A stretch of DNA of 64,000 nucleotides. Origin: Bdellovibrionota bacterium FG-1. Its GTDB lineage: Bacteria > Bdellovibrionota > UBA1018. The position numbers are program-made. Position 1 is the first letter of the stretch. Every line of letters begins with the position of its first letter. The stretch is from contig JBBCAW010000031.1 of the NCBI GenBank assembly GCA_051382295.1, positions 1-64,000 of the forward strand, in the 5' to 3' direction. This document shows, one piece after another, positions 21,901 through 33,900 of this stretch.

Positions 21901-24900
21901 GATCGTCTGGATCGTGCTCGACCGAAATCCCGGAGGGGTATTGGGTATTCAGCTTGTTTTTCGTTTGTTCTGCCATAGTTGCTCTACCCCTTGTCGCTTC
22001 TCAATGCCGACTAATCCAAAAGTTCCGGCCGAATCGGCATTGGCTCTGTAAACACCTGATAGCCACGGAGTGGATAATCCTTTCGCAGGGGGTGTCCCAC
22101 CCAGCGTTCATCCATCAAAATACGACGAAGATCGGGGTGCCCTTCAAAACGGACACCGTACATGTCCCAAACCTCGCGCTCCGCCCAATTCGCCGCCGGC
22201 CAAAGCAGCGTGGCGGTTGGAACCGATTCGCCATCTTTTGCTCGTGCTTTTACGCGAATCCGACTTTTTTTAGAAAGTGAAAACAGATTGTAAACCACCT
22301 CAAACCGCGGCTCAACTTCTTCATCGGTTGCCGTAAGGTCCGCCAAAAACTGGTAATCACAAGAAGGCTCTTGCTTGAGGAACTGAAGCACCTGAATGAG
22401 CTGCTCCCTTTTTACATAAATAATAGGAACATCGGTGGGAGACTCCACAGGGCTGCGAACCTCTTCGATTGCCGCACCAAATCGCGCCTTCACGGCCTCG
22501 ATTTGCCCTTTCCAAAGCTCACCAAACTTACCCTGCCAGTCGCCGCCATTATTAGGAATCGGAGTTCTGATATCCATTTCTTTTTCCTTTATGGGTGAGC
22601 GTTAGCCGCACTGAAGTCCGCGATCCGGCGTTGTGAGTGCGTCTCGCCACGCTGAATTTTTTCCCGCAGCAACAAAAGCGCATGCAAAACGCCCTCTGGG
22701 CTCGGCGGGCAGCCGGGGATATAAACATCCACCGGGATCATCGTGTCCACCCCTTGAAGAACACTATACACGTTGAAGATTCCGCCTGATGACGCGCATG
22801 CGCCCATCGAAATCACCCACTTGGGATCTGCAATCTGGTCATAAACTGTTTTTAAAACCGGCGCCATTTTCAGATTGATGATTCCCGCCACAATCAATAA
22901 ATCGGCCTGCCGCGGTGAAAACCGAAGAGCCTCCGCACCGAACCGCGCAATATCGTAATCAGAGGCAAAAGCGGCCATCATCTCGATTCCGCAACAACTG
23001 GTTCCAAAGGGGAGGGGCCAAAGCGAGTTTTTTCGGCCCCAATTAATCATGGCATCGAGGCGAGTGGTGAGAAAGCCAACCTGTCCGTCTTTATTCATTT
23101 AATATTTACTCCCATTCGAGCGCGCCTTTTCGGAGAACGTAAAAATATCCCACCAACAAGATGGCCACAAACGCCCCCATTTCCCACAAAATAAAGGAGT
23201 TGATGCTCAGGTATTTCTTAAAAACTACCGCCCAGGGGAAAAAGAAAACCGCCTCGACGTCGAACAAGAGAAAAAGAATCGCCACCAAATAAAAACGAAC
23301 GGAAAAACGATGTCGCGCATTTCCGATCGGCGGCATTCCACACTCAAACGGAGAGTTCTTTCGCCGAGAAGGCATCTTCGGCCCAATCAAGTAAGAGACT
23401 GTCAAAATGGCAGCCCCTACAAAAAGCCCCAGCGCCAGCAGAATCAATACAGGTATGTAGCCCATTTTTAATATATAACGTCAGGCGCAACTGCCCGCTA
23501 CCACAAAATAAAGCCTAGTGATTTACCCGCCCAATTTAAAACAAACTCCGCAAAAACACCCAGCATGACCACCGGCACCATTACGCCAACCAAAAAAGCC
23601 TGCCTCCCCCGACTCGGAGTAATGAATTTACCGTAAGACCCCGGTCGCAAGGACCCCGCCCTGAAATCGCCAACCAGATAAAACGCCATGCGCGCCACAG
23701 CCGCCGTAGAAAGGGTCATGGCTGCAATCGCCACTACGGCAAGAACATGCCAATGATGCCGAACCACCGCACCAATCAAAGCAAACTTACCCACAAAACC
23801 CGGCGTAGGGGGCAGTCCAATCAAGCAAAGCAGGAAGAGAACAAGAAAGCCGCACTCTGGAACCGCCCTAGAAAGCATTCCGCGCAAACCCTCGAGCGAA
23901 TCCGAACCTAATTCGTCGAAAAAAAAGGCCAATACAAAGAAACTGCCCATCAAGGCGAAAACCTCGACGACGAGGTTATAAAGGAGGGCGGCCACCCCCA
24001 CCTGATCCAAAACCAAAACACCCATTAAGAGAAACCCGGTCTGAGCAACGACCAGACACCCCACCATCCGCTTGGCCGCAGTTTGCCGCACCGCAAGAAG
24101 AGAGCCGATCAGCATCGTCATCCCAGAGACGAGAGCCACAATACGGGTCCAATCGAGCGCACCTAGAATTTGCCACTGCCCATCGAGATCGCTGCGCTGC
24201 GCAAACATTACAATCAAAAATCGAAGTGTAACGGCAACGCCCGCCGCGCGCACACCAAACGATAAAAACCCACTGGAGGAGGTAGGGGCCCCTTCTAAAA
24301 CATCAGGGGTCCAAAGATACATCGGAAAGGCGCTCAGCTGAAAGCTCAGCGCTAAAAAAATTAACATAAACACCACCAACATCGAGCTGTGTGTCAGCGG
24401 ATGGGTCACTAACGCTTTGTGGATTTCATAAATATTAAATCCATGCGTGAGCGCAAATAGCACCGCGAGCCCATACAAAAAAAGCGCGGCCGCAACAGAA
24501 CTAAAAACCATGTATTTAACAGCGGCCTCAGCTGAATAAATCGATCTTTTGCCAAAACCCGCCAAAAAATACCCAACAATATTCATGAACTGCAGGCAAA
24601 GAAAGGCCAACAATAAGTCCGCCGCCCCAGCGGCGAGAGACATCGCCAACGTTGAGGCCAAAACTAAAGCAAAGAACTCCGTCTGCCGCTCTTTAGCGAT
24701 TTCGCGACTTTGCATCGTCGTCCAAAGTGTCAGGCTCGCCAAAATGATAAAAAGTACTTTAAAAAAGAGCGAAAGCCCATCAATCGCAAGGGCCCCATCA
24801 AAAATCTGAGTCGCGCTATACTGATAGGTGATCAAGGTCTGCACAAACGCCGCCGCCAGTCCGACTTGCGCGGTACCGGCAACTAATCGCGTTCGCTCTC

Positions 24901-30900: not shown

Positions 30901-33900
30901 TGCGTTCATCGATCCGCCTCCGCAACGCCAAGATCTAGGCTTGCCAGCAATACCGGCAGGTCTTCAATCCGAATCCCGGGCAACAAAGAAGGAACCATCA
31001 ACAAATGGGCCGAAGATGGCGTCCTAAACTGCACTCTCGCCGGTCGGGCACTACCATCGGAAACCACATGACAACCGAGCAGGCCTCGCGAACTCTCGAT
31101 TCGTGAGTAACCCTCACCTTCGGGCACGGCAAAGTCTCTATCGATCCTTCCGATAGCAAATTCGCCGGGCGGAATTTTTTCAGCCGCTTGCCGCAGAATC
31201 ACCACGCTCTGAGCGATTTCACGAAGATGAACCAAAAAGCGGGTGTGCGCCCCGCTGCCCGATGCTTGACTTTCGACCGGCACTTCAAAATCCCATTTTG
31301 AATATCCACTATAAGGATGCGCCCGGCGGATATCCATTCCCACGCCTGAGGCGCGTGCGCTAGGGCCGGTGACCCCCCACTTGGAAATTTGCTCGGGAGA
31401 CAAAACACCCACCTTCATCGTTCGCAACAAAAAGGCGTGATTATAAGTAAAAAGATCATTGTATTCTTTCAGGCGAACCTGGGCCAGATCACAAACCTCC
31501 AACACTCTCTCAATAAAACCTTCGGTCACATCCGCCCTCACGCCACCGAATCTCAAAAAATTCAGCGAAAACCGCGCGCCTGACAAAAGCTCAAACAAAT
31601 CCAATACCCGCTCACGATCCCGCAAAACATAATGAAGCATGGTCTCGGCACCTACAGCTCGAGCCATTTGAACCATAAAGCCCATATGTGAGGAAATTCG
31701 AGTAAGCTCGGACAAAATCACGCGAATCACTTGTGCTCGTTCAGGCACTTCGATTTCAGATATCTCTTCGACCGCCAGACAAAGCGCTAATTCACCAAAA
31801 GCCGCCCCTTCGGGATCCAAATGATCAGCATAGGGAATCGACGCCTGCCAACTATGGCGTTCAAAAGCTTTTTCGAGTCCGCGGTGCAAATACCCACAGC
31901 CCACCGTACCCGAAACGACAATCTCGCCATCAAGCTGAAGACTCAGCTTGATGGGTCCCGGCAGAGCACCGTGATAGGGCCCGATTTCCCAGAGCGTCAG
32001 GTCTGTAACAAGACATTCGGCTTCAGGGCTTTGATTCATGAGAAATCCCTAAATATTCCGGTGGAAAAACATATTTTTTACGCAAAGGAAAACCCACCCA
32101 CCCCTGTGGAAGGCGCTGGCTTGGCAAATACACGGGCTGTCCGCTAGCGGACAAAAACCTAATCCCAAAAAGTTCGCCGGCCTCAACCTCAAAGGCGCCG
32201 GCCATCGCCCAGAGCTCGGCCACTGAAAAAAGTTCAGCCGGGACGGTCGGACCAGGCGGCACCGCTGAAACCCGCAAGGTCACAGTCAAGGCGCTGCTCG
32301 TTGAACGTAGAAAATAGGAGGCAACCAGTGTTTCTTCGACTTCGATCACGGAGAGATTTTCAAGCCAATCTAGAGCCACCCTGTTTTCATTTTTAAGAAA
32401 TGCTGCCACCGCCACCAGTAGGCGCCCCTCAATCCAAAAAGAGGGCGAAGTGGTGCGCCCGAAACACCCGTTTTCAAGCACGGCCCCAGGAACTGCTTGT
32501 TTAAGCTTTTTGAGAAGTTCGGTCGTGTCCACGGATTTTTTCCTGTAAGGCGATAAGCCCATTCATGATGGCTTCAGGCCGCGGGGGACACCCTGGCACA
32601 TAGACATCCACTGGTAAAAGACGATCGACCCCGGGCATGACAGAATAACTGAACTCCGGTGCGAAAGGACCGCCACAGTTCGCGCACGAACCGATCGCAA
32701 GAACATATTTCGGTGCAAGCATCGAATCATAGACCGCGCGCAACGGAATGGCGGCCTGATACGAAACCACTCCAGACACAATGAGTAAATCCGCTTGCCG
32801 GGGATCTGCCTGCGGAAGGCAGCCAAACCGCTCAAGATCGTAACGACAGCCCATCGTATTTAAAACCTCGTCTGCACAACACCCAGAGCCCGTGGAAATG
32901 TACCAAAGCGAGTTGGCGCGAGCCCATTGAAGAACTTTTCCAATCGTCGAAACATAAAATGAGGGTTTTTCCGTCGCTGGGCTCACGTTTTTTTATTTTC
33001 TCCTTTTTCCTCACGAAAACTCGTCAGCCAACTCAGATCCCCTTTGCGAACCGAGTAAAGAAGACCCAGGGCTGCAAAACCCGCGATTGACACGATCGCG
33101 ACCAAGCCGCGCAATAGCCCTTCGTGATCCGTTCCGGGCTGCAATATCCCCACACAGGGAACCAAAGCCAACATGAGTGCGATCAAAACCAGTGCTGCAT
33201 TTGCGGCGAGAAAAAATCGGGCATTTATTTTCTGACCCAAGACCGTTCGATTCGCTTCTACGGCTTCAGTCTTCGCACCGTTTTTGGGCGAAACCAAATA
33301 GGAAACCAAAGCTAAAGCGGCAGGAATGCCGAGAGCTAGGAATGCAGACAAAAAAACGATGTAGTAGACATCCCAGCCGCTGGGCATTGCGCCTTACCTC
33401 GCGAAAAGACTACGCAAGTCGAAATGGAGTGTCAAGGTCGGTGATTCGATTTATGCTGAACACAACCATGCTTTTTAATCCGACTGGCGGCTTGATCTAC
33501 CATTTGCGTGCGCTCCGATACCGCAACGCCCTTTGGCATGAGTTTCGGAACGCCCTCCACCCCTGGCTCGCTCAATGGGCACCTTCTGAGCGCGCTCTTC
33601 TGTTGATAGGCCCGAGTGGTGGTTATTGCTTACCCCCCTCTTTTTTGGCCCGCTTTAAGCAAATCAGCGCCGTAGATCCTGACCCCTGGGCCCCTATCAT
33701 CTTTCATCGACGCTTTAGACGCAACGCACAGTGGATTCGCCAAGATTATTTTTCACCCGTCCGGGGGGTTTTTGATCCTTCCCGCTTTGAGATATTAATG
33801 TCCAAACATCCTCACCATGCGGTTTTGTTTTGTAATTTTCTCGGGCAACTCCCGTTGTTAAACACCGCTGCGGCTACCCAACCTTCTTTTTCAAAATGGA

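What a model noticed while it worked through the whole genome (the two positions that open the first line are those of the whole stretch)
23498..33387. Catalytically stripped 11-subunit pseudo-complex I conserved upstream of the normal nuo operon
Directly upstream of the normal 14-gene nuo operon lies a second intact nuoABCDHIJKLMN operon (g01999-g01989). Its subunits have lost nearly all residues for proton pumping and quinone binding, yet keep the Fe-S cysteines of NuoB and NuoI. It is under purifying selection in most of the family: a whole respiratory complex turned pseudoenzyme, perhaps with a sensing, scaffold or electron-relay role.
Evidence so far: Compared with the genome's two canonical paralogues in 11 genomes. 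Lost in 11 of 11: NuoL E144, K229, H254, K342, K399; NuoM E144, K265, H348, E407 (K234 to R); NuoN E133, K217 (K247 to R); NuoA D79, E81. Also lost: the NuoH acidic loop and the NuoD quinone His228 and Tyr277. The four NuoB Cys are kept. Same gene order beside the canonical nuo operon in 10 of 10 loci. Present in 48 of 74 family relatives. NuoD orthologues are at least 52% identical only in this lineage, next hits 39% or less. pN 0.19-0.46 against a saturated pS of about 0.77.
(Added by a program. Inside this text positions count along the whole contig: contig position 1 is position 1 of the stretch shown here. "Call 12" and the like, gene names such as g00115 and contig names such as C1 are that model's own, and its searches are not shown. 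The text may have been shortened before it was handed on; [...] marks where a part breaks off. The agent that wrote the report below was given it as the finding of a first reader that could run no searches.)

Follow-up and report, generated by a model that had tools for sequence, protein, structure and literature searches.

The report
Pump-less twin of respiratory complex I
Next to its normal respiratory complex I genes, a class of uncultured bacteria keeps a second, strongly conserved copy that retains its iron-sulfur electron wire but has lost the parts that pump protons, so a major energy-converting machine seems to have been given another job.

Summary
Confirmed and extended. Window 33387-23498 (- strand) is an intact nuoABCDHIJKLMN operon ending 32 bp before the canonical nuoA-N. 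Of 33 mechanism positions (E. coli numbering), family copies keep 73 of 1345, against 636 of 638 in intact orthologues and 598 of 603 in canonical copies. The Fe-S cysteines of NuoB and NuoI are kept in all 42 and 41 family copies; dN/dS is 0.07 in the one clearly unsaturated family pair, equal to the canonical operon. It occurs in 73 of 74 family genomes (not 48) and across the class. It descends from an 11-subunit complex I that is still intact at the same site in other Bdellovibrionota. It is remodelled rather than only stripped: fixed Lys-to-Arg, Glu-to-Gln and loop-to-Pro changes, a new His and Glu in the quinone pocket, and a new conserved NuoI insertion. NuoL keeps its fold. Best reading (0.45): a non-pumping Fe-S electron relay on a proton-sealed membrane arm. 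Rivals: structural or regulatory partner of complex I; redox-gated transport or sensing. No expression or activity data; no description found in my literature searches.

The parts
32983..33387 (-). nuoA' (134 aa): three TM helices; TM1-2 coupling loop (FECG motif, E51) and D79/E81 lost
   Evidence: no NCBIfam/Pfam hit
32501..32986 (-). nuoB' (161 aa): N2 ligands C36, C37, C101, C133 kept; second quinone-site loop shortened by one residue, R87 (E. coli) lost
32023..32562 (-). nuoC' (up to 179 aa), divergent; absent from 5 of 40 family loci
30906..32039 (-). nuoD' (377 aa): H228 to Pro27, Y277 to Pro76, D329 to Ala128; new His136 and Glu132 in the quinone pocket; lacks the ~24-residue insert of 14-subunit enzymes
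   Evidence: model pLDDT 93.5, TM 0.93 to E. coli NuoCD
29824..30909 (-). nuoH' (up to 361 aa): E157, R209, E216, E218, E228, E241, R286 lost; R46, D63, K274 kept
29291..29827 (-). nuoI' (likely start 29827; longest ORF from 29899, used for residue numbers): 8 Cys for N6a/N6b kept; new conserved E-x-Y-P-D-P-x-S insertion
28779..29294 (-). nuoJ' (likely start 29294): TM3 Y59/G61 pi-bulge motif lost
28492..28782 (-). nuoK' (96 aa): E36 and E72 to Gln
26528..28495 (-). nuoL' (655 aa): all axis residues lost, 15% identical to the canonical NuoL, but full NuoL fold with the long transverse helix and last TM helix
24993..26516 (-). nuoM' (507 aa): E144, H248, H348, E407 lost; K234 to Arg236, K265 to Pro267
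23498..24985 (-). nuoN' (495 aa): E133 and K217 to Gln, K247 to Arg246, H305 to Gln; K395 kept
10031..23465 (-). canonical nuoA-N operon directly downstream (context; probably the same transcript, inferred from the 32-bp gap)

Best explanation
The operon encodes an assembled, L-shaped 11-subunit complex descended from an ordinary ferredoxin-type (no NuoEFG) complex I. Its proton pump has been dismantled and sealed: protonatable Glu/Lys/His of the central axis are replaced by Gln, Arg, Pro or small residues, and all four coupling elements (NuoA TM1-2 loop, NuoH TM5-6 loop, NuoD beta1-beta2 His, NuoJ TM3 bulge) are lost. It is kept for its N6a-N6b-N2 iron-sulfur wire: a soluble low-potential carrier (ferredoxin or flavodoxin, perhaps docking at the new NuoI' loop) passes electrons through the wire to an acceptor in the remodelled pocket (a quinone bound in a new way by His136/Glu132, or another small molecule), without proton pumping. 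It would act as an uncoupled redox valve beside the coupled complex I with which it is co-expressed. Shown: sequence losses and gains, selection, ancestry, predicted folds. Inferred: assembly, clusters bound, absence of pumping. Guessed: donor, acceptor, physiological role.
For: Mechanism positions kept 73 of 1345 in family copies against 636 of 638 in intact orthologues. Fe-S ligands are the near-invariant core across the class: NuoI 8 Cys in 41 of 41 family and 30 of 31 other class copies (the exception is a split ORF); NuoB 4 Cys in 42 of 42 family (one with CGC spacing) and 25 of 26 others, even in family f3 where the membrane subunits are shortened and no longer hit any of my profiles. 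Lineage-specific conserved gains are concentrated in NuoI' (12 columns; E70 and S77 in 31 of 31 non-family class copies) and the quinone pocket of NuoD' (His136 in 42 of 42 family and 6 of 7 f3 copies, 0 of 58 intact NuoD; Glu/Asp132 in 35 of 42); these align with Thermus F147 and L143, which PMC4758237 lists as quinone-chamber residues (passages and section 7). Replacements are held by selection: Arg at NuoM 234 uses all six Arg codons in 40 loci; the Pro replacements use all four codons. NuoD' has the short loop of 11-subunit enzymes (11-21 residues against 37 in canonical copies), so NuoEFG is unlikely to be the input. The genome has four 2-oxoacid:ferredoxin oxidoreductase-type matches. 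dN/dS 0.072 over 3441 codons at dS 0.40, canonical 0.076; 0.01-0.08 in f3.
Against: A non-pumping oxidoreductase should not need three antiporter-like subunits, yet NuoM' is as constrained as NuoD' (81 columns at 90% conservation in each; dN/dS 0.02). Fe-S ligands may be kept only because NuoB and NuoI need clusters to fold. The quinone triad H228/Y277/D329 is absent in 42 of 42 family copies, and no donor or acceptor is identified. One class member (L234) has lost three of four NuoB cysteines while keeping the operon. His136 is not class-wide (6 of 13 order-level, 2 of 8 in the other order). No expression or activity evidence exists.
Confidence: 0.45

Rival explanations
1. True pseudoenzyme: a catalytically dead structural or regulatory partner of the canonical complex I (supercomplex scaffold, assembly template, or source of inactive subunits that swap in and lower its coupling); the clusters are structural.
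For: Directly upstream of canonical nuoA in 40 of 40 family and 10 of 10 order-level loci where both ends were held, usually about 30-80 bp away (these loci were chosen for having both operons on one contig). Fold and inter-subunit surfaces are kept while the interior chemistry is lost. NuoM' and NuoN' are strongly constrained. Prolines in mobile loops suggest a frozen machine. L234 has lost N2 ligands.
Against: Adjacency is ancestral (tandem intact clusters exist in other classes), so it needs no functional link. A full parallel subunit set, new polar residues inside the quinone pocket and a new NuoI motif are not expected of a mere scaffold. The subunits are only 15-41% identical to the canonical ones, which makes swapping unlikely.
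Confidence: 0.25
2. Redox-linked transporter of something other than protons (an anion such as bicarbonate, or Na+), or a redox sensor that uses the arm to pass a conformational signal.
For: The family's axis is not simply hydrophobic: fixed Arg at NuoM 234 (41 of 41) and NuoN 247 (38 of 41), Lys/Arg at NuoN 395 (40 of 41), Arg at NuoH 241 (30 of 41), Gln at former Glu/Lys sites, Glu at NuoM 322 (21 of 41). Cyanobacterial NdhF3/F4 show that an antiporter-like subunit can be re-purposed (PMC12435202, passages).
Against: These replacements are not class-wide (NuoN Arg in 1 of 23 non-family copies); NuoL' has only 9 conserved columns and none of them charged among the gains; all coupling loops are lost; no MrpEFG-like or Cup-like gene lies in the operon.
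Confidence: 0.18
3. It is still a proton-pumping quinone reductase that uses substitute residues.
For: Single-site losses are tolerated in nature and in mutants: the genome's third, otherwise intact NuoM has Leu at K234; E. coli NuoN E133A keeps activity (PMC13073174, passages). Some order-level copies keep NuoM E144, K265, H348, E407 (L086, L240).
Against: Family copies keep 0-3 of 33 positions each; K247A alone nearly abolishes activity in E. coli; no compensating acidic residues are fixed along the axis.
Confidence: 0.08
4. A decaying duplicate on its way to loss.
For: Long branches; loss of nuoC in 5 of 40 family loci; shortened membrane subunits in f3; whole cluster missing at the locus in G231 and NuoI' not found in G207.
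Against: Open frames, dN/dS 0.01-0.17 per gene in unsaturated pairs, presence in 73 of 74 family genomes including those of about 2 Mb.
Confidence: 0.04

Closest known systems
11-subunit complex I (NUO11; cyanobacterial NDH-1, PDB 6hum/6khj; Fpo-like), and specifically the intact mfd-adjacent nuoAHJKLMN plus separate nuoBCDI of other Bdellovibrionota
   Same: Subunit set without NuoEFG, gene order, short NuoD loop, tandem-Cys NuoB, folds; NuoM' forms one clade with the intact mfd-adjacent NuoM (support 0.999).
   Different: Those keep all axis and quinone residues (636 of 638 and 16 of 16); this one keeps about 5%.
Canonical 14-subunit complex I (E. coli Nuo, Thermus Nqo)
   Same: Homologous subunits and folds (NuoD' TM 0.93, NuoL' TM about 0.7); N2, N6a, N6b ligands.
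   Different: No N-module, no H228/Y277/D329, no proton axis, no coupling loops.
Cyanobacterial NDH-1MS (NdhF3/F4 with CupA/B)
   Same: A paralogous complex I whose distal antiporter-like subunit lost proton-release residues and took another job (PMC12435202, passages).
   Different: There the quinone site and the rest of the axis work; here all three antiporter-like subunits, the E-channel and the quinone triad are changed, and no Cup-like gene is present.
Fpo, Sulfolobus and Nautiliales Nuo-like complexes; Mbx/MBS
   Same: NuoD homologues that lack part or all of H38/Y87/D139 and are thought to use other acceptors (PMC4758237 sections 5 and 7, passages of 6).
   Different: Those are described as ancestral forms; this is a derived loss from a quinone-type ancestor, has no vestigial NiFe cysteines, and has also lost the charged axis that MBS keeps (PMC8165549, passages).

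Membership tests
Complex I superfamily, 11-subunit type (descent) | NuoABCDHIJKLMN homologues, no NuoEFG | tested here: met
Complex I superfamily, 11-subunit type (descent) | N2 ligands with tandem Cys in NuoB; 2x[4Fe-4S] ligands in NuoI | tested here: met
   42 of 42 (41 with the tandem pair) and 41 of 41
Complex I superfamily, 11-subunit type (descent) | NuoL fold with transverse helix, docked on NuoM | tested here: met
   pLDDT 90.2, helix 554-629; Foldseek top hits NdhF/NuoL; complex score 0.65 against 0.00, may reflect likeness to solved structures
Functional proton-pumping NDH-1 | Charged central axis in NuoL, M, N, K, A | tested here: not met
   0-3 of 33 positions kept per family copy
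Functional proton-pumping NDH-1 | Quinone triad H228/Y277/D329 | tested here: not met
   0 of 42 for each; pairwise check against Thermus, NdhH and E. coli chains
Functional proton-pumping NDH-1 | Coupling elements: NuoA TM1-2 loop, NuoH TM5-6 loop, NuoJ TM3 motif | tested here: not met
   their role from PMC10212512, passages
Functional proton-pumping NDH-1 | Measured quinone reduction and proton translocation | not testable with these tools
   needs purified complex
14-subunit complex I | NuoEFG in the operon and the long NuoD loop that goes with them | tested here: not met
   loop 11-21 residues against 37; use of NuoEFG in trans not tested
Group 4 [NiFe]-hydrogenase / MBS | NiFe or vestigial cysteine motifs in the large subunit | tested here: not met
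   no Cys at either motif region in family copies
Mrp antiporter / NDH-1MS | MrpEFG-like or Cup-like genes; MrpA/D Glu-Lys pair | tested here: not met
   no such family among the operon's ORFs; Glu-Lys pairs lost
Pseudogene cluster | Broken frames, dN/dS near 1 | tested here: not met

The most novel reading that the evidence does not exclude
A whole complex I has been converted, across a bacterial class, into a machine with a new output: the Fe-S wire and a re-built pocket (His136/Glu132) read or turn over a substrate other than the usual quinone, with a new partner docking on the NuoI' loop, and the arginine/glutamine-lined arm conducts a non-proton solute or relays a signal. The class preserves the intermediate steps of the conversion.
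Probability: 0.2. Interest if true: 0.92.

Novelty: new variant of a known kind. Interest (0 to 1): 0.76.

Why it matters
Complex I is held to couple electron transfer tightly to proton pumping, and laboratory mutants of the axis usually lose both. Here evolution removed nearly the whole axis and every coupling loop, kept the Fe-S wire and the architecture, and has held the result under strong selection across a class. It offers a natural uncoupled complex I and a graded series (intact, partly stripped, fully stripped, eroded, lost) for asking what the membrane arm does besides pumping and in what order coupling can be dismantled. It also warns that genome annotations counting this operon as a second NADH dehydrogenase or proton pump are wrong.

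Tried and rejected
RNA evidence: no RNA holder listed for window 20000-29999, so no reads were laid. Promoter/terminator scan: 4 promoter-like sites against 5.7 expected by chance, terminator-like hits mostly within T-rich membrane genes; uninformative. dN/dS for most same-genus pairs is saturated (pS 0.64-0.83) and not used; of 11 family pairs only L031/L032 is clearly unsaturated, and L061/L062 gives 0.21 against 0.11 for the canonical genes at dS 1.0-1.4, a sign of weaker constraint in that genus. The NuoD tree makes the degenerate copies one clade (0.87) but does not join them to the separate intact nuoBCDI when rooted on E. coli alone; orthology of the soluble arm therefore rests on the shared short loop and on profile scores. 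Futalosine-pathway MqnA/D not found in the genome, so the quinone type is unknown. A first list of 'new conserved' residues was mostly ancestral to the 11-subunit lineage and was cut down. One locus was mis-sorted and corrected. Literature searches found no description of this operon's degeneration; PMC13147790 (passages) notes only a conserved nuoAHJKLMN site in Bdellovibrionota; PMC13200544 (passages, section 19) does not discuss it; supplements of these papers were not read and could list the genes. Earlier-finding look-ups by sequence and by relatives were blank. Binding of NuoEFG or a ferredoxin was not modelled.
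Full report
Observation. The window holds, on the - strand, eleven contiguous ORFs from 33387 to 23498 followed after 32 bp by a canonical nuoA-N (23465-10031), then a TPR protein and serS; mfd lies upstream on the other strand. Nine of the eleven hit Nuo families; NuoA' and NuoL' hit none. NuoL' aligns over 510 columns with the canonical NuoL (hhalign 92%, E 5.7e-7); its model from a 49-sequence alignment has mean pLDDT 90.2 with the long transverse helix and final TM helix, and its best structural matches are NdhF and NuoL (E 6e-16, TM 0.75). 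The NuoD' model (pLDDT 93.5) matches NuoD/49-kDa chains at TM 0.93. A model of NuoL' with NuoM' residues 165-507 scored 0.65 against a best control of 0.00 (mark reached by 116 of 157 solved complexes and 2 of 215 mismatched pairs; runs agree in at least 94% of contacts; partner pLDDT at least 72); as like complexes are solved, this shows likeness, not binding. The genome also has a third, 11-subunit nuo cluster on contig C4.

Range. NuoD' has an orthologue at E 2e-76 or better in 70 of 74 family genomes; NuoM' adds one and NuoI' two: 73 of 74, the miss being 56% complete. I fetched 40 family loci, chosen for having both operons on one contig; all 40 show the divergent cluster between mfd (where the contig reaches it) and canonical nuoA, 32 with all 11 genes detected. 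It is also present in 16 loci of other families of the order, in 7 loci of family f3 and 8 loci of the class's other order; one further f3 locus is cut short and one (G231) has mfd directly beside canonical nuoA. The closest titled records are all Bdellovibrionota MAGs, one titled FG-2 with 65% NuoD' identity; PMC13200544 (passages, section 19) places FG MAGs in family and class UBA1018 (Bdellonasia), so this is probably the lineage. A profile search of 1.84 billion representatives returned 150 rows; of 149 aligned, 65 differ at two or more of four core NuoM sites.

Origin. In other classes of the phylum the same mfd-adjacent site holds nuoAHJKLMN in 22 of 22 loci fetched (chosen among the best scorers to NuoM'), in 11 of them followed by genes of a second cluster. 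These keep every mechanism residue, and NuoM' groups with them (support 0.999, FastTree, rooted on E. coli). Four of the five such genomes searched for NuoD also have a separate intact nuoBCDI without EFG; the fifth, of family f21, has only the canonical type. So the operon is not a fresh duplicate of its neighbour but an old 11-subunit complex I that was disarmed in this class. PMC13147790 (passages) mentions the conserved nuoAHJKLMN site but not any loss of residues.

Anatomy. Anchored on E. coli K-12, 33 positions of the proton axis, E-channel and quinone site are kept 73 of 1345 times in 42 family copies (0-3 each, mostly NuoN K395 and NuoCD H224), 53 of 418 in order-level copies, 10 of 160 and 6 of 48 in the other order and f3 (fewer subunits scored), against 636 of 638 in intact orthologues and 598 of 603 in the family's canonical copies. 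The choice of these positions is from recalled knowledge of E. coli complex I, partly confirmed in PMC13073174, PMC10212512 and PMC4758237 (passages). Order-level copies such as L086 and L240 are intermediates that still hold NuoM E144, K265, H348, E407 and NuoCD Y277. Replacements are patterned: NuoM K234 is Arg in 41 of 41, NuoN K247 Arg in 38 of 41, NuoK E36 and E72 Gln in 32 and 26 of 39, NuoL K229 Gln in 31 of 40, and NuoM K265, NuoCD H228 and Y277 are Pro in 39 of 41, 36 of 42 and 35 of 42, with all synonymous codons in use. The NuoA TM1-2 loop motif and the NuoJ TM3 motif are gone. I infer a rigid, proton-tight arm.

What is kept and gained. NuoB keeps four Cys in 42 of 42 family copies (one with CGC spacing) and 25 of 26 others; NuoI keeps eight in 41 of 41 and 30 of 31. 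After removing features shared with intact relatives, conserved gains number 12 in NuoI', 7 in NuoM', 4 in NuoD' and 0-3 elsewhere. NuoI' has an inserted E-x-Y-P-D-P-x-S segment whose Glu and Ser occur in 31 of 31 non-family class copies. NuoD' has His136 (42 of 42 family, 6 of 13 order-level, 6 of 7 f3, 2 of 8 other order, 0 of 58 intact) and Glu/Asp132 (35 of 42) at the places of Thermus F147 and L143, and Glu/Asp77 after the lost tyrosine (41 of 42). NuoD' has the short loop of 11-subunit enzymes, which I read, from recalled structures, as lack of the NuoG contact.

Selection. In the one clearly unsaturated family pair, dN/dS is 0.072 over 3441 codons (dS 0.40; 0.02-0.17 per gene) against 0.076 for eight canonical genes. 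In three f3 pairs it is 0.01-0.08 per gene although the membrane subunits there are shortened and unrecognisable to my profiles. Long-term divergence is nonetheless faster than in canonical genes (mean identity to the window 31-62% against 63-79%), nuoC is absent from 5 of 40 family loci, and one copy has lost three N2 ligands.

Mechanism. Most likely (0.45) a non-pumping Fe-S relay from a ferredoxin-like carrier to an acceptor in a rebuilt pocket, on a sealed arm; the genome has four 2-oxoacid:ferredoxin oxidoreductase-type matches. The main difficulty is the strong constraint on NuoM' and NuoN', which favours the rivals: a dead structural or regulatory partner of complex I (0.25) or redox-linked transport or sensing (0.18). 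Continued proton pumping (0.08) and decay (0.04) are unlikely. No RNA run was listed; nothing here shows expression or activity.

Novelty. By descent a member of the complex I superfamily; by defining function not an NDH-1. The nearest precedent, NDH-1MS, alters only the distal subunit. Six literature searches found no description. Unchecked notes of this scan report the same operon in another genome and similar stripped complexes in other phyla; these are leads, not support, but suggest a recurring fate of spare complex I copies. Verdict: real, new variant of a known kind, interest 0.76.

Noticed in passing
G000:C4 about 104500-116700: Third, 11-subunit nuo cluster that keeps 30 of 33 mechanism positions but has Leu at NuoM K234; it lies beside a 2-oxoacid:ferredoxin oxidoreductase gene and its NuoM is sister to the mfd-adjacent clade.
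   Followed up: partly
L213, L234-L238, L243, L244: In the class's other order the degenerate cluster has an extra membrane ORF of about 450-490 aa between nuoL' and nuoM', weakly NuoM-like, recalling 2M-type complexes.
   Followed up: no
L231-L233, L242, L245-L247: Family f3 carries the most eroded form: no nuoC detected, membrane subunits cut to about 300, 330 and 480 aa, yet dN/dS 0.01-0.08.
   Followed up: partly
L248 (G231); G207: Cluster missing at the locus in G231 and NuoI' not found in G231 or G207 (both about 92-93% complete): natural losses useful for finding co-lost partners.
   Followed up: partly
L234:12567-12998: NuoB' has lost three of four N2 cysteines while the rest of the cluster is open.
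   Followed up: no
L224: The canonical operon of an f3 genome has Thr at NuoN K247 and Tyr at NuoM H248, and a long NuoM branch.
   Followed up: no
L219 (G083): A separate nuoB, fused nuoCD, nuoI cluster in another class whose NuoD also lacks H228, Y277 and D329: an independent loss.
   Followed up: no
L092-L096, L105, L108: Two intact nuoAHJKLMN sets in tandem, with their soluble arms encoded elsewhere.
   Followed up: partly
window 17551-18960: Canonical NuoG is short (469 aa), lacking much of the C-terminal molybdopterin-like part.
   Followed up: no
window 33177-34190 (+): ORF with no Pfam or NCBIfam hit between nuoA' and mfd; its first start codon overlaps nuoA', so the real start is probably later; no similar ORF was seen in the relatives' loci.
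   Followed up: no
window 548-5181: IS66-type transposase, a DruA-like gene and a helicase C-terminal-domain gene.
   Followed up: no
L043: Canonical nuoB, C, D, F are split by frameshifts, probably sequencing errors, while the divergent cluster is open.
   Followed up: no
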